A stretch of 64,000 bases of DNA from Escherichia phage vB_EcoM-E33. Position numbers and translations under genes: made by a program. Every line of letters begins with the position of its first letter. Positions within the stretch are counted from its first letter, which is position 1. Below, in pieces: positions 5,038-32,708 of this stretch. The notes beneath the pieces were generated by a model. The model had not been told where the DNA came from. It did no database searches and was given only the letters and a program-made list of their open reading frames with translations. The stretch is from the sequence record OL780484.1; one strand, 5' to 3'.

Positions 5038-6848
5038 TATGCAATCCTCATCCAGCGATGAACAGTTAAGTATGGTGGTAGAGTATTAACCGGGATAGGA
5101 GTGGTTCCTTGAGCCTTATTAATACTGGCTTTATCTTCACGATATTTTGTATAAGCCGGTCCTTGTGAATCAGGGTCAACTAAACACCCACCTACAAAAA
5201 TAGGGCCATCGTTATCAGCAATAAGGACTTTATCATCGGTATTAAGTTCAGGGATATTCTCATATTTCAAATTAGCCACATGAGCGCCACCAGTACCGCC
5301 AGCAGTTGACTGTGGAATACCGGCAGAATCCAGATCGTTGTTATTTGCATTAAACAAAGAACTAGCGTCAGGAGACCAACCTACCAAGAACACATCAGAT
5401 AAACGCTTCCATGAACCAAAGCCCATATAAGTTTTAGGGTTATTAGGGTTCACCGTATTCTCATAGATGGTTCCTATTGGATAAACCAAATCAAAAAACG
5501 TTGCTGCTGTATCTATTGTAATATTGGACGCGGCGACCGGTTCAACGTTAGGTGCAAAAGGATTGTCTACATCAGTGATACGAACTTGACCTGTTATATC
5601 GATAGAAGGCCCTTTAGAAATATAGATGTTGTTGGTATAATCCAAAATCTCATCAATTTCCATGGTGGTACCGATATCATTATTGTACCAAATTACTGTA
5701 AGAATATCGCCGTGTTCAAAGTTACGTCCAAATTCAATAGATTCAATCTTGTCTTCAGGAGTCAAATTAAAAATATAATCTGATTTAGATTGGGTCCATT
5801 GACCACCAGCATTAAAACACTCGGTAGCAGTACGACCATCAGCACCTTCACAATAAAACGAAGGAAGTCCTGCTGTACCGGCTTGATGAAGTAATGTGCT
5901 ATTAAGCATGACTTGACAAGCATTTGGGTTGATAGGACTGTTAACAGAAATATTCAAATCAGCGGCTGATATAACATGCGAAGTATTCAAATCGGCTACG
6001 AAGGAAGAACCAGGAACAGAAACGTTTTTAGTCAATTCTGAACTTTGGATTGTTATATCACGGCGGTTATAAGAACTACGCCATTGGGCAAGTCCGTCAT
6101 TATATGATTTGATAATAACAGTATCACCTGCTTCACAAGGATATTTTAAACGGATGTCCTTACCATTCAAAGCTACCAATTCGCCCGGTTGAGCACCTGG
6201 AGAACCGAACTCTGCGGTAGCGGCATCAAAAATATCATCAACACCGTAGAACAAATTGTTACCACGTTGTGAAACGCTTAAACTCGCTACGTTATAAGAA
6301 AGCCCTGGGAAAATGTCTAGAAAATCTGTTTGGCCTTCAGTGGCAATAAACTGCTTAGTTGCTACAGTAGCGAGGTCGTTATTTGGAATACGGTTTACTT
6401 GCTTGTTCTCGACATATTCCCAACGTCCTGGGGCGCAATAAACTAATTCAAGGTCAGAGAAGTTGCGAGCAATTTCTACTTGAGTAGCTGAACCCTTAAT
6501 GGTATCACCCGTGGCAGGGATTAGGGTTACCGGGTTAGCTTGCCATGAAGAATACACGTCGCGTACACGGATAACAAAGTTATATTCTTCAGGAGAGCCT
6601 TTAGGAAGCTGAACGTTAATACGCCCACCTTGAGTATTAAGGGTATAGCTATGACCCATTACAGCGTTCAACAAAGCACCATCTGCAGTAGAATGCTGTT
6701 TCCAAGCGCCTGCTGCATGAGGGTTGTTGCCATCACCTAATTGGTAATAAAGCTCATTGAAGTTGTTATTAATTTTAAGACCACCTGCACGCAGGTAATC
6801 ACCGGACCCGTCATCAACAGCGGAACCTACTTTTAAGTCTTGTTTCAT
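5037..6848 (-). CDS. 10: baseplate wedge protein gp10
   Basis: 603 aa; MKQDLKVGSAVDDGSGDYLR..., ELVYCAPGRWEYV, YENTVNPNNPKTYMGFGSWK, C-terminal YTKYRE..VHRWMRIA match T4 gp10. Confidence 0.9.
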   Translation of the reverse strand: MKQDLKVGSAVDDGSGDYLRAGGLKINNNFNELYYQLGDGNNPHAAGAWKQHSTADGALLNAVMGHSYTLNTQGGRINVQLPKGSPEEYNFVIRVRDVYSSWQANPVTLIPATGDTIKGSATQVEIARNFSDLELVYCAPGRWEYVENKQVNRIPNNDLATVATKQFIATEGQTDFLDIFPGLSYNVASLSVSQRGNNLFYGVDDIFDAATAEFGSPGAQPGELVALNGKDIRLKYPCEAGDTVIIKSYNDGLAQWRSSYNRRDITIQSSELTKNVSVPGSSFVADLNTSHVISAADLNISVNSPINPNACQVMLNSTLLHQAGTAGLPSFYCEGADGRTATECFNAGGQWTQSKSDYIFNLTPEDKIESIEFGRNFEHGDILTVIWYNNDIGTTMEIDEILDYTNNIYISKGPSIDITGQVRITDVDNPFAPNVEPVAASNITIDTAATFFDLVYPIGTIYENTVNPNNPKTYMGFGSWKRLSDVFLVGWSPDASSLFNANNNDLDSAGIPQSTAGGTGGAHVANLKYENIPELNTDDKVLIADNDGPIFVGGCLVDPDSQGPAYTKYREDKASINKAQGTTPIPVNTLPPYLTVHRWMRIA

Positions 6849-30163: not shown

Positions 30164-31123
30164 ATGATGTTAGTTATTGGTTCTCGTGCACTGCACCACG
30201 CTGGTCTGATTGAAAGTAAGCATATCGAAAATTCTGATTGGGATTTCATTGCCTACCAAGGCTCATGGAATCACTTTAAAGCACGTATGTTCGGCGCCCA
30301 TGTACACGTTGACAATCCTGATGTCCAGGCTTTCAAATGTATGCATAATGGTAAAGAAACCTATTTTGAAGCATATATCGTTCGTGCTCTGACTAACGTA
30401 CGAGAAATCACCGGTGAGCTCCAAGATGAAGATTTCACCTCAAGTTATCGTCTTCTGAAATATGCTGAAAATCATATTAAAAAGGACCGTCTTACAGGTT
30501 TCTATTGGGCAACCCCTGATATCTGTCTGGCTATCAAAACCTCCCATCGTTTCTTGAAGAATAATCCGTTCTTCTTGAAAACCATGTCCCACATCAAATA
30601 CCTTCGTAATAAAGGTATCACCCTTAACGAAGAACTCCAGGAAATTATGTTGCAACGTCAAAAAGAAACGTTGAGCTATTCCCACCCTAAATTGGATGTA
30701 AACAAATCATCGTTCTTTAATGATACCATTTATACCCTAGACCACGACTCTATCCATGAAGCAGTGGCATTGGCAGGGCGCCCTGCATATACCTTTTATA
30801 TGAAGGAAGGTTCTGAAGTCATGACCTCTCGTGAGAAGTTCGAGGCTTTGCCTGAAGCTATTAAACTGGCTGGTGTATATGAAGAAACTTGTGTCCTGGC
30901 ACTAGAACGTTCACAGGTTCCTAATGACTTCAATATTTCACCATCATTAAGTTTCTATATGGCCCTTGAGAAAGTGTGCACCTCAATCACTTCAGGTTGG
31001 TTCCGCACTTATGCATGGGAAAACTACCAAGCTGTGGTTAATATGTACAAGACTTTAGGTGAAAACGACTACATTGAACGGTTTAAGCGTAACCAACATT
31101 TAATTCGTCCTTTCGAAAAATAA
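30164..31123 (+). CDS. putative nucleotidyltransferase-fold protein
   Basis: ATG 30164 after SD gagga; N-terminal LVIGSRALHHAGLIESKHIENSDWDFIA fits the minimal NTase pattern G[SG]x9-13[DE]h[DE]h. Confidence 0.55.
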   Translation: MMLVIGSRALHHAGLIESKHIENSDWDFIAYQGSWNHFKARMFGAHVHVDNPDVQAFKCMHNGKETYFEAYIVRALTNVREITGELQDEDFTSSYRLLKYAENHIKKDRLTGFYWATPDICLAIKTSHRFLKNNPFFLKTMSHIKYLRNKGITLNEELQEIMLQRQKETLSYSHPKLDVNKSSFFNDTIYTLDHDSIHEAVALAGRPAYTFYMKEGSEVMTSREKFEALPEAIKLAGVYEETCVLALERSQVPNDFNISPSLSFYMALEKVCTSITSGWFRTYAWENYQAVVNMYKTLGENDYIERFKRNQHLIRPFEK

Positions 31124-31135
31124 TTGCACAAAACA

Positions 31136-31164
31136 GTGTACAAGGTCTATAGGTGTGATACTAT
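31136..31164 (+). promoter_or_regulatory. early promoter cassette inside a 10-bp inverted repeat
   Basis: -35 GTGTAC 31136-31141, TACTAT 31159-31164; aggtctatag (31143-31152) pairs with ctatagacct (31161-31170). Confidence 0.5.
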
Positions 31165-31201
31165 AGACCTATCAAAACAACAGAGTGAAATGGAGAATAA
31201 A

Positions 31202-31414
31202 ATGAAACTTTCTAACCAAGCAATCAACATGTTAAACGAAGTTCGTGCAGCTGGTGCTAAATGCCTGATGGTTAACACTCGTGACGGTGACCTTCGTCAA
31301 GCATTTGGTGAATTGAAATCTGCTGACCTGGTTAAATGTTCAGTTGGTATTGGTAACGCACTTCGTGTATCCTTATCCCCTAAAGGTAAAATGTACTTTT
31401 TCAACAAAAAGTAA
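31202..31414 (+). CDS. hypothetical small protein
   Basis: ATG 31202 after conserved leader gagtgaaatggagaataaaATG; ORF-track start 31124 would include the promoter. Confidence 0.55.
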   Translation: MKLSNQAINMLNEVRAAGAKCLMVNTRDGDLRQAFGELKSADLVKCSVGIGNALRVSLSPKGKMYFFNKK

Positions 31415-31428
31415 GTGAGGAAAATATT

Positions 31429-32115
31429 ATGAATAGTTCTAAAGTGTTTAATAGTCAAGCTCGTGCAGTAGGCGGTTTTGCTCATGCAATTAAAAACGAC
31501 CAGATTAAAAACGAGCCTATGTTCTTTAACTGTGATTTGAATTTTGCTTTTGATAATGGCAGCCCAATTACTCGTAGCTTTATCCAAAATCTTCCTGACG
31601 ATTGGAAAGACTCGGATGTAGTATTTGATTCCCGTGTACACATGTTAATGCCTGGCTGGTATCCTGCTATCCCAGGTTATCACCATGATGATGTACCACG
31701 TCCGGATATTCCGGTGGGTCAACACTTTATTACCGCAGGGCAACCTGATTATGATAATCCTCGATACCATTCTGAACATATTCTTGGTCTTGTTAACGCT
31801 GATGTGTGTCCTACTCATTTTGCAACCGGAACTGCACAGTTCAGTCAGATTCCTGAAGGCGAACTTATCTATCGCCAGTGGCATAAAGAAGTTCTGGAAA
31901 AAATTGAGTCCAATGAATTAACCAAGTGGGATGCTCCTGACCGCACGTTACTCCAGTTTGATTGGCAGACATGGCATACAGGTTCTCGTGCAGTAAGTAA
32001 CGGTTGGCGCTGGTTTGGTCGTGTGTCTCGTAATACAGACCGTGTTAAAAAGATTACAAATGAAATCCGCGTTAATGCTCAAGTATATCTGGAATTCCCT
32101 ATGGAGGGCTGGTAA
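31429..32115 (+). CDS. hypothetical protein; spacing of HxD...H...RxS reminiscent of 2OG-Fe(II) oxygenases (speculative)
   Basis: 228 aa; HHD at residues 85-87, H183, RVS 198-200; SD gagga then ATG. Confidence 0.5.
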   Translation: MNSSKVFNSQARAVGGFAHAIKNDQIKNEPMFFNCDLNFAFDNGSPITRSFIQNLPDDWKDSDVVFDSRVHMLMPGWYPAIPGYHHDDVPRPDIPVGQHFITAGQPDYDNPRYHSEHILGLVNADVCPTHFATGTAQFSQIPEGELIYRQWHKEVLEKIESNELTKWDAPDRTLLQFDWQTWHTGSRAVSNGWRWFGRVSRNTDRVKKITNEIRVNAQVYLEFPMEGW

Positions 32116-32708
32116 TGGCCCTTTATGAACCTGGTTGTATGGGTATTGATACAAACTTCATCCGTCGGTCGGAAAATGCTGGAATTATTATCCCAAGTGG
32201 TGAGAATATGATTATTAAAAAGTCCTGGCGAAATATCGATGACTGTGATGAAGGAATTTCAGCCAGTACAATAGATTGGTCAGGTTGTACTGCCGAAATG
32301 AAACAGCTTTTAATTGAGGAATATAAAATGGGCTATATTGTAAACGGCTGGCAACCAGTAAAGAAAATCACTCGCACTGACGATAAGTATATTTGTCTCC
32401 AAGATGGAAAGGCCAGGCTCATTGATACTGAATGGCTTACGTTCGGACGATATGTTGTAGCGTATTTTATTACTTTACTTCCAATGTTAGTGCTGAGTTC
32501 ATTTTTAATCGATGCCAACTGGAATGATGCGCTAGAACGAACTATTATTGGCGCTGGATTAATGAACCTTGCCGCCGCTGGCGCTGCTTTAAGTATTTGG
32601 TGCTTGGCTATTGAAATGCCATGGCGTTTACGTCGTCAACAACGTCTTTACGACGAAGGTAAAATCAAACAGAATTTAAATGAGTTTATTGAGGAATGCC
32701 GTAAATGA
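32115..32708 (+). CDS. membrane protein (two C-terminal transmembrane helices)
   Basis: TAATG overlap with the upstream gene; hydrophobic YVVAYFITLLPMLVLSSFLI and IIGAGLMNLAAAGAALSIWCLAI. Confidence 0.55.
   Translation: MALYEPGCMGIDTNFIRRSENAGIIIPSGENMIIKKSWRNIDDCDEGISASTIDWSGCTAEMKQLLIEEYKMGYIVNGWQPVKKITRTDDKYICLQDGKARLIDTEWLTFGRYVVAYFITLLPMLVLSSFLIDANWNDALERTIIGAGLMNLAAAGAALSIWCLAIEMPWRLRRQQRLYDEGKIKQNLNEFIEECRK

What the first reader, a model, noticed from the sequence alone, without database searches (positions are those of the whole stretch)
31429..32115. Protein with 2OG-Fe(II)-oxygenase-like HxD...H...RxS spacing
HHD at residues 85-87, a distal His at 183 and R-V-S at 198-200 reproduce the metal- and 2-oxoglutarate-binding spacing of Fe(II)/2OG dioxygenases. 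If real, the enzyme could modify nucleic acids or proteins (AlkB-like repair or hydroxylation). The assignment rests on motif spacing alone.
Basis: inference. Interest (0 to 1): 0.35.

Follow-up and report, generated by a model that had tools for sequence, protein, structure and literature searches.

The report
Uncharacterised phage iron/2-oxoglutarate oxygenase-like protein
This T4-like phage gene encodes a well-conserved but unstudied protein that almost certainly has the fold and metal-binding residues of an iron/2-oxoglutarate oxygenase; what it oxidises is unknown.

Summary
The ORF (31429-32115, +, 228 aa) is real. The spacing alone is not beyond chance: about 10% of composition-matched shuffles show it. 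Two other lines of evidence support the reading. Across 363 full-length homologs from very different phages, H85, D87, H183, R194 and R198 are kept in at least 99%. Two independent AlphaFold models (pLDDT 91 and 95) have as their best PDB neighbours almost only Fe(II)/2OG oxygenases of the PhyH type (HygX, GriE, SnoK, EctD, proline hydroxylases). These matches are distant (TM about 0.4, E about 1e-4).

No Pfam or NCBIfam model matches. The family is PHROG 1843, "unknown function". S200 is Ser or Thr in 94% of members. Nothing supports AlkB, prolyl-hydroxylase or TET/JBP membership.

The gene stands alone among early/accessory genes of T4-like, T7-like, sipho- and actinophages, under purifying selection (dN/dS 0.1-0.24). 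In some lineages it lies beside RNA-repair genes (RtcB, metallophosphoesterase) or NAD+/ADP-ribose genes (NARP1-like, NADAR, ARH, Nudix). This is a weak lead towards a counter-defence role.

Verdict: a divergent, unannotated family within a known enzyme superfamily, substrate unknown.

The parts
31429..32115 (+). Complete ORF (228 aa plus TAA stop) encoding the Fe(II)/2OG-oxygenase-like protein. It corresponds to QL01 gp120 and Bp7 gp225, both annotated 'hypothetical protein', and belongs to PHROG 1843.
   Evidence: dN/dS 0.12-0.24
31417..31420 (+). GAGG Shine-Dalgarno sequence, 8 nt upstream of the ATG. The upstream ORF stops at 31412-31414.
   Evidence: read directly from the sequence
31681..31689 (+). 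Codons for H85-H86-D87. H85 and D87 are the proposed proximal Fe(II) ligands (HxD). They lie in the highly conserved stretch LMPGWxPxIPGWHxDxVPR.
   Evidence: H85 in 362/363 and D87 in 360/363 members; aligned to PHYH H175/D177 in the extended hhalign alignment
31699..31701 (+). Codon for R91, a near-invariant Arg four residues after the HxD. It is a candidate binder of an anionic substrate.
   Evidence: 360/363 members; the role is inferred
31690..31773 (+). Family-specific loop insert (residues about 88-115) between the strand carrying HxD and the next core strand. This is the least confident part of the model.
   Evidence: pLDDT 65-74 and no regular secondary structure; variable length in the alignment
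31813..31815 (+). Codon for T129 (CPTxF motif on the strand at residues 129-138). It is a candidate second ligand of the 2OG C5-carboxylate.
   Evidence: 346/363 members; the role is inferred by analogy with TauD T126 (from memory)
31975..31977 (+). Codon for H183, the proposed distal Fe(II) ligand, on the predicted strand at residues 182-185.
   Evidence: 360/363 members; strand position; aligned to PHYH H264
32008..32010 (+). Codon for R194 (GWR motif), at H183+11, the canonical H-X10-R position. It is the best candidate for binding the 2OG C5-carboxylate.
   Evidence: 359/363 members; aligned to PHYH R275; lies on the predicted strand 192-201
32020..32028 (+). R198 is invariant and residue 200 is Ser or Thr in 94% of members. 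It lies on the same face of the same strand as R194. It binds either 2OG (DAOCS/TET2-like register) or an anionic group of the main substrate (TauD R270-like).
   Evidence: which role applies is unresolved (inference)
32107..32112 (+). Codons for the C-terminal G227-W228. Trp is the last residue in about 95% of members.

Best explanation
The ORF encodes a soluble, stand-alone, non-haem Fe(II)/2-oxoglutarate-dependent oxygenase. It belongs to a phage-borne family that has not been characterised and is a remote structural relative of the PhyH (phytanoyl-CoA dioxygenase-like) group.

Proposed mechanism (inferred): H85, D87 and H183 form the facial triad that holds Fe(II). 2OG chelates the iron through its C1-carboxylate and C2-keto groups. 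Its C5-carboxylate is salt-bridged by R194 on the eighth jelly-roll strand, possibly helped by T129. O2-driven decarboxylation of 2OG to succinate and CO2 generates an Fe(IV)=O species. That species hydroxylates a C-H bond of a main substrate, or dealkylates it through hydroxylation.

The HxD (not HxG/A) motif argues for hydroxylase-type chemistry rather than halogenase-type. The further invariant arginines (R198, R91, R214) suggest the substrate carries carboxylate or phosphate groups: a small metabolite, a nucleotide, or a nucleic-acid or ADP-ribose-type adduct.

The gene is expressed with the early/accessory block between the tRNA region and nudE/e. It needs no phage partner, so it most likely acts on a host-derived or universal substrate to aid infection.

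Shown: the ORF, its conservation, the predicted fold class and the gene neighbourhoods. Inferred: metal and 2OG binding, the chemistry and the substrate class.
For: (1) Conservation. H85, D87, H183, R194 and R198 are kept in at least 359 of 363 members spanning about 25-100% identity. In the 103-sequence alignment only G83, H85, D87, H183, R194 and R198 are invariant.

(2) Fold. The AF2 model of the window protein has pLDDT 90.7 and pTM 0.88, with eight core strands in jelly-roll order. HxD follows the second strand, H183 is on the seventh and R194/R198 on the eighth. An independent model of the 33%-identical Mycobacterium phage Reindeer gp122 has pLDDT 94.7.

(3) Structural neighbours. For model 1, 49 of the top-50 PDB Foldseek hits are Fe/2OG oxygenases or halogenases (HygX, GriE, SnoK, H11 proline hydroxylase, EctD, SadA, HalB/D, EvdO2, ColD, ThoJ) and one is DUF4867. 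Probabilities are 0.93-1.00 and the best E is 4e-4. For model 2 nearly all top-50 hits are again Fe/2OG oxygenases, now also including TauD and proline 3-hydroxylase, best E 1.3e-4; the exceptions are YjgK, ergothioneine dioxygenase and one rhinovirus capsid chain. Several of these (SnoK, EvdO2, MysH, ThoJ, EctD) are sequence relatives of human PHYH.

(4) Profile alignment. hhalign of the family profile against a 5-sequence PhyH PDB profile puts H183 on PHYH H264 and R194 on R275. The extended alignment also puts H85/D87 on H175/D177. The score is 20.8 against 13.7+-2.3 for column shuffles, and 1 of 60 shuffles reaches it.

(5) Viral structures. BFVD neighbours beyond the family include cyanophage and giant-virus 'phytanoyl-CoA dioxygenase' and '2OG-Fe(II) oxygenase' proteins. 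UniRef names one family cluster 'Phytanoyl-CoA dioxygenase family protein'.

(6) A real, selected gene. There are 1,295 homologs in the first search and 614 representatives at 50% clustering. dN/dS is 0.12-0.24.

(7) Stand-alone. No gene family accompanies it in more than 9 of 41 lineage groups.
Against: No sequence-based method reaches significance against any curated 2OG family. Pfam and NCBIfam give nothing for the protein, for 103 members scanned one by one or for the family consensus sequences. HMM searches against PDB sequences give nothing. hhalign to PhyH is only marginal (E 0.036).

Structural matches are distant (TM 0.3-0.44, rmsd about 8 A) and rest on predicted models. I could not read model coordinates, so the convergence of H85, D87, H183 and R194 on one site is inferred from strand topology and not measured. 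No biochemical data exist for any member. Cupin-fold proteins with His/Asp metal sites that do not use 2OG exist; small cupins such as YjgK and ergothioneine dioxygenase also appear.
Confidence: 0.78

Rival explanations
1. Nucleic-acid oxygenase. The protein would be an AlkB-like repair demethylase, or a TET/JBP-like base hydroxylase, acting on DNA, RNA or tRNA. It could also remove a host-inflicted adduct from RNA as part of phage RNA repair.
For: Several invariant arginines (R91, R198, R214) could bind phosphates. In actinophages and prophages the gene lies within about 3.5 kb of an RtcB RNA ligase and a metallophosphoesterase, while the genes in between vary; in ClubL it directly abuts RtcB. 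Divergent RtcB genes also lie 5-7 kb away in L117/L118 and L123. Skog has a polynucleotide kinase 3.5 kb away. In T4-like phages the gene sits about 7 kb downstream of the tRNA genes. Phage TET/JBP T-dioxygenases exist (PMC13229309).
Against: No PF13532 (AlkB) or PF12851 (TET/JBP) match at E<=10. No AlkB, FTO, TET or JBP structure appears among the top 50 PDB neighbours of either model. RtcB is nearby in only 3-5 of 41 lineage groups and is absent from the window and from the T7-like, siphophage and Bacillus-phage loci. The published phage T-dioxygenases were all retrieved with PF12851.
Confidence: 0.12
2. Small-molecule (amino-acid-type or other carboxylate metabolite) hydroxylase that remodels host metabolism, like its closest structural neighbours. 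Alternatively, it simply converts 2OG to succinate, as was proposed for the PhyH-domain proteins of cyanophages.
For: The nearest structures are free-amino-acid or small-molecule enzymes: GriE (Leu), H11 and P3H (Pro), SadA, EctD, HalB/D (Lys/Orn), MysH, HygX and EvdO2. The gene has no dedicated partner and occurs in phages of Proteobacteria, Actinobacteria, Firmicutes and others, so the substrate is expected to be universal. PhyH-domain proteins are core genes in T4-like cyanophages, with a proposed role in modulating 2OG (PMC3037559).
Against: Structural similarity is only at the fold level (TM about 0.4), so substrate pockets cannot be transferred. No biosynthetic or transport genes accompany the gene. 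Nothing identifies a specific metabolite.
Confidence: 0.3
3. Counter-defence enzyme of the NAD+/ADP-ribose conflict. It would oxidise or oxidatively release an NAD-derived signal or adduct, working beside NAD+-reconstitution (NARP1) and ADP-ribose-processing enzymes.
For: Three loci place the gene beside NAD+/ADP-ribose genes:
- L123: FAM, then a PRPP-synthetase-like (Adps-type) gene, then a NAMPT-like (Namat-type) gene, with a 4-nt overlap between the first two.
- L092: Adps-like, 4mcj-like, NADAR, NAMPT-like, then FAM.
- L046: Nudix, NMNAT-like..., FAM, ADP-ribosylglycohydrolase, NAMPT.

These FAM proteins are only 29-40% identical to one another. In the window, the NudE Nudix hydrolase lies 714 bp downstream. 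There is precedent for accessory enzymes inserted in NARP1 operons: Adpp and RyDEP (10.64898/2026.01.28.702374; 10.64898/2026.05.28.727677).
Against: NAMPT-like genes are near FAM in only 4 of 41 groups. In the reverse test only 2 of 80 NAMPT-like IMG/VR loci carry FAM, and one of those is the seed contig. The window itself has no NARP1, NMNAT, ARH or RtcB. Accessory and anti-defence genes cluster in islands anyway. No paper on NARP mentions such a gene. No chemistry is known that links 2OG oxygenases to ADPR.
Confidence: 0.12
4. Not a 2OG enzyme. The protein would be a cupin-fold protein that uses the His/Asp/His site differently (a 2OG-independent dioxygenase or isomerase), that hydroxylates a host protein, or that merely binds a ligand.
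For: Sequence methods do not link it significantly to any 2OG family. Small non-2OG cupins (YjgK, ergothioneine dioxygenase) appear among the neighbours of model 2. Four members give weak AraC_binding (cupin) hits, best E 0.003.
Against: An invariant Arg sits exactly at H+11 on the eighth strand, and it aligns in register with the PhyH 2OG-binding Arg. 49 of 50 top hits for model 1, and nearly all for model 2, are 2OG enzymes.
Confidence: 0.1

Closest known systems
PhyH / phytanoyl-CoA dioxygenase-like Fe(II)/2OG oxygenases (Pfam PF05721; e.g. human PHYH 2a1x, SnoK, EvdO2, HygX, EctD, GriE)
   Same: They are the best structural neighbours of both models. The family shares the HxD...H triad with an Arg exactly 11 residues after the distal His. 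The profile alignment places H85/D87/H183/R194 on PHYH H175/D177/H264/R275. Both have N-terminal helices and strands packed onto a jelly-roll. The mechanism is probably the same.
   Different: There is no PF05721 match; among 103 members the best is one hit at E 0.068. TM is only about 0.4. The protein is shorter (228 aa against 250-310). It has a family-specific insert of about 28 residues right after the HxD, a second invariant Arg at H+15 followed by Ser/Thr, an invariant 'PGWxPxIPGWHxDxVPR' block and an invariant C-terminal Gly-Trp. It is found almost only in phages and prophages.
TauD/TfdA-type 2OG dioxygenases (PF02668; E. coli TauD)
   Same: The linear motif is the same: HxD...T...H-X10-R-X3-R. 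In TauD (H99, D101, T126, H255, R266, R270; residue numbers from memory) the first Arg binds 2OG and the second binds the substrate's sulfonate. TauD structures appear among the neighbours of model 2 (ranks 38 and 46). The best, though non-significant, hhalign segment puts GWH85xD87 on TauD NWH99TD101.
   Different: There is no significant sequence or profile similarity (probability below 1%). TauD ranks low structurally (prob 0.33, TM 0.26) and is larger, with different insertions.
   Same: Same superfamily chemistry and the same HxD...H triad.
   Different: There is no HMM match and neither family appears in the top-50 structural neighbours. hhalign against E. coli AlkB gives a probability of 0.15%. 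The P4H-type 'H-X~9-10-RxS' position is occupied here by R194-W-F; the Rx[S/T] triplet lies four residues further on.
Phage TET/JBP 5-methylpyrimidine dioxygenases (PF12851; PMC13229309, PMC8256090)
   Same: They are phage-encoded Fe/2OG oxygenases, and some work with a nearby ParB-like protein. TET2 has an RxS at H+15 (from memory). Reindeer encodes a ParB-like nuclease domain protein four genes upstream.
   Different: There is no PF12851 match and no TET/JBP structure among the neighbours. No DNA methyltransferase, glycosyltransferase or hypermodification genes are linked. The ParB-like gene is not conserved next to the family.
PhyH-domain and 2OG-Fe(II) oxygenase genes of T4-like cyanophages (PMC3037559)
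   Same: They are accessory jelly-roll oxygenase genes of unknown substrate in T4-type phages. They appear as weaker BFVD structural neighbours.
   Different: They are different sequence families; P-SSM2 PiuC, for example, is PF13640. hhalign of the family against six P-SSM2 candidates is non-significant.

Membership tests
Fe(II)/2OG-dependent oxygenase superfamily (cupin/DSBH clan) | Double-stranded beta-helix (jelly-roll) core of eight strands | tested here: met
   This rests on predicted models only. Two AF2 models (pLDDT 90.7 and 94.7) show the expected strand order. 49 of the top-50 PDB neighbours of model 1, and nearly all of model 2, are 2OG oxygenases.
Fe(II)/2OG-dependent oxygenase superfamily (cupin/DSBH clan) | Conserved HxD/E...H facial triad, located after strand II and on strand VII | tested here: met
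   H85 in 362/363, D87 in 360/363 and H183 in 360/363 members. Positions relative to the predicted strands are as expected.
Fe(II)/2OG-dependent oxygenase superfamily (cupin/DSBH clan) | Basic residue on strand VIII that binds the 2OG C5-carboxylate | tested here: met
   R194 (H+11) and R198 (H+15) are each kept in 359/363 members, on the predicted strand 192-201. R194 aligns with PHYH R275. Which of the two binds 2OG is unresolved.
Fe(II)/2OG-dependent oxygenase superfamily (cupin/DSBH clan) | 2OG-dependent turnover (succinate and CO2 formation) with Fe(II) | not testable with these tools
   This needs biochemistry. No member has been characterised (literature searches).
PhyH family (Pfam PF05721) | Match to the PF05721 HMM above the gathering threshold | tested here: not met
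   No hit for the window protein at E<=10. One of 103 members hits at E 0.068. The family consensus sequences give no hit.
PhyH family (Pfam PF05721) | Significant profile-profile similarity with the catalytic residues in register | tested here: inconclusive
   hhalign against a 5-sequence PDB PhyH profile gives E 0.036 and score 20.8, against a shuffle null of 13.7+-2.3 (1 of 60 shuffles reaches it). All four catalytic residues are in register. A deep PhyH profile could not be built, because the last homolog search returned mostly vertebrate PHYH.
AlkB family (PF13532) | HMM match or close structural similarity to AlkB/ALKBH | tested here: not met
   No Pfam hit. hhalign against E. coli AlkB gives probability 0.15%. 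There is no AlkB-type chain in either top-50 list.
Prolyl 4-hydroxylase-type (PF13640 / P4Hc) | HMM match; RxS about 9-10 residues after the distal His | tested here: not met
   No Pfam hit. The residues at H+11 to H+13 are R-W-F, and Rx[S/T] lies at H+15 to H+17. hhalign against P-SSM2 PiuC (PF13640) gives probability 0.1%.
TET/JBP 5mYOX (PF12851) | PF12851 HMM match; linkage to DNA-modification genes | tested here: not met
   No hit. The neighbourhood census shows no methyltransferase, glycosyltransferase or hypermodification partners.
PHROG 1843 (phage protein family, unknown function) | Full-length HMM match | tested here: met
   E 4.5e-96, residues 1-228 on profile positions 1-222 of 222.

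The most novel reading that the evidence does not exclude
The family is a new class of phage counter-defence or repair enzyme. It would be a 2OG oxygenase that oxidatively removes or destroys a host-immunity product, for example an NAD+/ADP-ribose-derived signal or adduct, or a lesion on tRNA/RNA. That would explain why it recurs beside NARP1 (Adps/Namat), NADAR, ADP-ribosylglycohydrolase and Nudix genes, and beside RtcB/metallophosphoesterase RNA-repair genes, in deeply divergent phage lineages. It would also explain its spread by horizontal transfer among T4-like, T7-like, sipho-, Herelle- and actinophages.
Probability: 0.2. Interest if true: 0.75.

Novelty: new variant of a known kind. Interest (0 to 1): 0.42.

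Why it matters
If the assignment holds, about a thousand "hypothetical" proteins gain an enzyme class and a testable active site (H85/D87/H183/R194/R198). These proteins occur in Dhakavirus and other T4-like coliphages, Aeromonas and Klebsiella phages, T7-like phages, mycobacteriophages, Gordonia and Bacillus phages, and prophages. They belong to PHROG 1843 and have no Pfam model.

Oxygen- and 2OG-dependent chemistry in phages is known only in a few cases (TET/JBP DNA hydroxylases, AlkB). A widespread, horizontally mobile, stand-alone oxygenase in early-gene regions would be a new way for phages to alter host metabolites or macromolecules.

Its occasional placement inside NAD+-reconstitution and RNA-repair gene clusters gives concrete, cheap experiments in cultured phages such as QL01, JS98-like phages, Bongo/Reindeer and Smoothie. 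As it stands, though, this is an ordinary-looking remote member of a very large superfamily with unknown substrate.

Tried and rejected
- **Curated family models.** Pfam, NCBIfam and PADLOC scans of the protein found nothing, and Pfam scans of 103 members, of two family consensus sequences and of ten longer homologs (possible fusions) were equally empty.
- **PDB sequence searches.** A single-sequence search and a profile search returned only noise.
- **hhalign against single sequences.** E. coli TauD, AlkB and six P-SSM2 candidates were all non-significant.
- **Deep PhyH profile.** I used the last large homolog search to build one, but it returned almost only vertebrate PHYH orthologs and was of little use.
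- **e.2 as a functional partner.** The stop/start overlap with the downstream e.2-like membrane gene suggested coupling. I rejected this: e.2 homologs are absent from all non-Tevenvirinae loci, and the real e.2 start is probably 31 codons downstream.
- **T4 ortholog.** There is none in the syntenic e-to-tRNA region of T4.
- **ParB-dependent T-dioxygenase idea.** It was prompted by the ParB-like gene in Reindeer. I rejected it: there is no PF12851 match and ParB is not conserved next to the family.
- **Nudix linkage.** It holds in only 3 of 41 groups.
- **NARP1 linkage, tested in reverse.** Only 2 of 80 NAMPT-like loci carry the gene, so I downgraded it to a weak lead.
- **Cultured phage with a NARP1-adjacent copy.** None was found; the best GenBank hit to the L092 protein is 43% identical.
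Full report
**Observation.** The window is a Dhakavirus-type T4-like coliphage, 99.6% identical over this gene to Escherichia phage QL01. The ORF at 31429-32115 (+) starts with ATG, is preceded by GAGG eight bases upstream, and encodes 228 aa.

The spacing is not remarkable on its own. About 10% of shuffles of the same composition contain Hx[DE]...H...RxS, and 8.7% contain HxD...H-X10-R. The finding therefore stands or falls on conservation and fold.

**The gene is real and widespread.** It matches PHROG 1843 ('unknown function') end to end (E 4.5e-96). No Pfam, NCBIfam or PADLOC model matches.
- A first search found 1,295 homologs.
- There are 614 representatives at 50% clustering.
- 471 GenBank phage records carry it. 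They include T4-like phages of Escherichia, Shigella, Aeromonas, Klebsiella, Enterobacter, Serratia, Edwardsiella, Pectobacterium and Erwinia; Vequintavirinae; Mycobacterium and Gordonia phages; and Bacillus Herelleviridae.
- It also occurs in genomes or MAGs of at least a dozen bacterial phyla and one archaeal MAG, probably as prophages.

A 72%-identical copy sits in a 61-kb SPP1-portal-type contig, which indicates horizontal transfer between unrelated phages. dN/dS is 0.24 against Bp7 and 0.12 against that contig. T4 itself has no copy in the syntenic e-to-tRNA region. Annotators call the gene 'hypothetical protein'. The exceptions are one 'oxidoreductase', one erroneous 'tail sheath monomer' and one UniRef 'Phytanoyl-CoA dioxygenase family protein'.

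**Conservation of the motif.** In a 69-sequence alignment (down to 24% identity) and a 103-sequence alignment of 50%-cluster representatives, the invariant positions include H85, D87, H183, R194 and R198. In the larger alignment the only invariant columns are G83, H85, D87, H183, R194 and R198.

Over 363 full-length members aligned to the family HMM, the counts are:

| Residue | Members keeping it (of 363) |
|---|---|
| H85 | 362 |
| D87 | 360 |
| H183 | 360 |
| R194 | 359 |
| R198 | 359 |
| R91 | 360 |
| R214 | 353 |
| T129 | 346 |
| W228 (C-terminal) | 345 |

Position 200 is Ser in 192, Thr in 150 and Ala in 14 members. None of the other eight histidines of the window protein is invariant in the 69- and 103-sequence alignments. 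This is the pattern expected of a 2-His-1-carboxylate site plus 2OG- and substrate-binding arginines.

**Fold.** AlphaFold2 with the 69-sequence alignment gave pLDDT 90.7 and pTM 0.88. The model has two N-terminal strands and three or four helices, then a strand at residues 64-73. The HxD segment follows, then a less confident loop of about 28 residues (pLDDT 65-74). Strands follow at 116-122 and 129-138, then a helix at 147-160, then strands at 165-168, 173-178, 182-185 (carrying H183) and 192-201 (carrying R194 and R198). That is the order of a double-stranded beta-helix, with the triad and the arginine on the expected strands.

Foldseek against the PDB returned, in the top 50, 49 Fe(II)/2OG oxygenases or halogenases and one DUF4867 chain. 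The oxygenases include HygX, GriE, SnoK, proline hydroxylase H11, EctD, SadA, HalB/HalD, EvdO2, ColD, ThoJ and MysH. The best E is 4e-4, probabilities are 0.93-1.00, TM is 0.28-0.44 and rmsd about 8 A.

As an independent replicate I modelled Mycobacterium phage Reindeer gp122, which is 33% identical (pLDDT 94.7). Its neighbours are the same class, with ColD, GriE and H11 on top and TauD, proline 3-hydroxylase and EctD further down. The best E is 1.3e-4. The list also holds a few small cupins (YjgK, ergothioneine dioxygenase) and one rhinovirus capsid chain.

BFVD returns family members first. It then lists uncharacterised phage and giant-virus proteins, and annotated 'phytanoyl-CoA dioxygenase' or '2OG-Fe(II) oxygenase' proteins of cyanophages and giant viruses. 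Model coordinates are not exposed by the tools. The convergence of the five residues on one site is therefore inferred from topology, not measured.

**Relation to known families.** Several of the structural neighbours (SnoK, EvdO2, MysH, ThoJ, EctD) are sequence relatives of human PHYH. From PHYH (2a1x), SnoK, EvdO2, SnoN and PHYHD1 I built a small PhyH profile.

hhalign of the family profile against it gives a marginal score: 20.8, E 0.036. The column-shuffle null is 13.7+-2.3, and 1 of 60 shuffles reaches the real score. The alignment is nonetheless in register. H183 falls on PHYH H264 and R194 on R275. The extended alignment also puts H85/D87 on H175/D177.

All five PhyH proteins carry Arg exactly 11 residues after the distal His, as this family does. 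The canonical 2OG-binding arginine is therefore most likely R194. It could bind an anionic group of the main substrate, as TauD R270 does. Alternatively it could be the 2OG ligand in a DAOCS/TET2-like register. Those residue numbers are from memory and this point is unresolved.

AlkB, P4H-type and TET/JBP membership were each tested and not met. The recently described phage T-dioxygenases are PF12851 proteins, and this protein is not one.

**Surroundings.** In the window the gene lies in the hyperplastic early region, which runs as follows:
- tRNA-Met and tRNA-Arg (24136-24292)
- many small ORFs
- a DUF7277/DUF7275 protein
- a small ORF annotated as 70 aa in QL01 (ORF listing gives a longer 96-aa ORF, 31124-31414)
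- this gene
- an e.2-like membrane protein
- a 78-aa ORF
- the NudE Nudix hydrolase
- lysozyme e
- an ipIII-like internal head protein
- denV

All are on the + strand. The one-base stop/start overlap with e.2 is probably not meaningful. Both the PHROG profile and T4 e.2 begin aligning at residue 32 of that ORF, and e.2 is absent from every non-Tevenvirinae locus.

**Neighbourhood census.** I collected 119 loci, which gave 104 called family ORFs falling into 41 groups at 60% identity. No gene family accompanies the gene in more than 9 groups.

The commonest neighbours are generic: T7-like DNA polymerase, primase-helicase, RNA polymerase, 5'-3' exonuclease and HNH endonucleases. I identified these by inspecting representative sequences. 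They show that in T7-like phages the gene sits among the DNA-metabolism genes. The enzyme is therefore stand-alone and presumably acts on something common to very different hosts.

Two recurrent but minority contexts are worth recording.

(a) RNA repair. In actinophages and prophages (Reindeer/Bongo group, M. abscessus prophages, Smoothie group, Yvonnetastic, ClubL), the gene lies within about 3.5 kb of an RtcB RNA ligase and a metallophosphoesterase. These three are the only genes shared by all four loci compared, while the genes in between differ. GD43A-5 keeps the phosphoesterase only. Skog has a polynucleotide kinase nearby. Divergent RtcB genes lie 5-7 kb away in two other lineages.

(b) NAD+/ADP-ribose genes.
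- L123 has FAM, an Adps-like PRPP-synthetase homolog and a Namat-like NAMPT homolog in tandem, with a 4-nt overlap between the first two.
- L092 has Adps-like, a 4mcj-like protein, NADAR, NAMPT-like (E 4e-170 to PDB NAMPTs) and then FAM.
- L046 has Nudix, NMNAT-like, a protein kinase..., FAM, ADP-ribosylglycohydrolase, NAMPT and a FAD oxidoreductase.
- The FAM proteins of these loci are only 29-40% identical to one another.

NARP1 operons are known to recruit accessory enzymes, namely Macro Adpp and RyDEP. The reverse test is sobering, however. Of 80 NAMPT-like IMG/VR loci, 77 of which carry an Adps-like gene, only two carry FAM, and one of those is the seed contig. The window has none of these genes except NudE. 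I treat both contexts as leads consistent with residence in accessory or anti-defence islands, not as evidence of function.

**Mechanism and verdict.** The best-supported explanation is a non-haem Fe(II)/2OG-dependent oxygenase.
- The triad is H85/D87/H183.
- 2OG is anchored by R194, possibly with T129.
- The outcome is hydroxylase-type, because the motif is HxD rather than HxG/A.
- The substrate is anionic and is recognised by R198, R91 and R214.

I put about 0.78 on the enzyme-class assignment. Confidence in any particular substrate is much lower: small metabolite about 0.3, nucleic acid about 0.12, NAD/ADPR-related about 0.12.

It is wrong or unsupported about the subfamily, and probably off by four residues for the 2OG-binding arginine.

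In terms of novelty this is an unannotated, phage-specific, divergent family inside a very well known superfamily. It has its own insert, a second invariant arginine and an invariant C-terminal Gly-Trp. That is moderately interesting. It would become much more so if the counter-defence or repair reading were borne out experimentally.

Noticed in passing
window 32115-32708: The e.2-like membrane-protein ORF overlaps the stop codon of the studied gene by one base. However, PHROG 2203 and the T4 e.2 homolog both align only from residue 32 onward. The true start is therefore probably the ATG near 32208, and the apparent translational coupling may be an artefact of ORF calling and annotation.
   Followed up: partly
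L015 (T4 NC_000866) 5482-5961: The window's e.2 protein aligns in one tblastn segment across T4 coordinates that run about 170 nt beyond the annotated 102-aa T4 e.2 CDS, up to nudE. This suggests the T4 reference e.2 is truncated or interrupted compared with its Dhakavirus homolog.
   Followed up: no
window 24136-24292: Two adjacent tRNA genes, tRNA-Met(CAT) and tRNA-Arg(TCT), lie about 7 kb upstream. They mark the T4-type tRNA region that precedes the e.8-e.2 accessory block.
   Followed up: no
window 30164-31123: Two genes upstream is a protein of about 320 aa made of DUF7277 plus DUF7275 (PHROG 2141), also of unknown function and conserved in Bp7 and QL01.
   Followed up: no
L001 (Reindeer), L005 (Smoothie), L016/L017 (M. 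abscessus prophage), L018 (Yvonnetastic), L023: Actinophages and prophages keep a trio of RtcB RNA ligase, the studied family and a metallophosphoesterase within about 3.5 kb, while the small genes and HNH endonucleases in between turn over. In Gordonia phage ClubL the family gene directly abuts RtcB. This may be an RNA-repair module.
   Followed up: partly
L092 6571-10567; L123 9707-12915; L046 5156-14355: Uncultured viral or MAG contigs place the family gene inside NAD+/ADP-ribose gene clusters. L092 has Adps-like, a 4mcj-like protein, NADAR, NAMPT/Namat-like and then the family gene. L123 has the family gene, Adps-like and Namat-like, with 4-nt overlaps. L046 has Nudix, NMNAT-like, ..., the family gene, ADP-ribosylglycohydrolase and NAMPT. 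The reverse test (2 of 80 NAMPT-like loci) shows the link is rare.
   Followed up: partly
P0112 (Escherichia phage vB_EcoM_005); prophiT49-2 gp141; P0018 cluster: Public names for family members are inconsistent: 'tail sheath monomer' (clearly wrong), 'oxidoreductase', and UniRef 'Phytanoyl-CoA dioxygenase family protein'.
   Followed up: no
L009 48665-49213 (P-SSM2 PSSM2_054) and L014 19601-20230 (PSSM2_104): Two P-SSM2 genes are annotated 'DNA endonuclease V'. PSSM2_054 gives only a weak 2OG-FeII_Oxy_3 hit (E 0.005). A similarly named cyanophage protein appeared among the structural neighbours. These are probably mis-annotated jelly-roll oxygenases.
   Followed up: no
P0251 (418 aa), P0305 (444 aa): A few family representatives are about twice the normal length and match the query in two or three stretches. 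This suggests tandem duplication or fusion of two copies. No other Pfam domain is present.
   Followed up: partly
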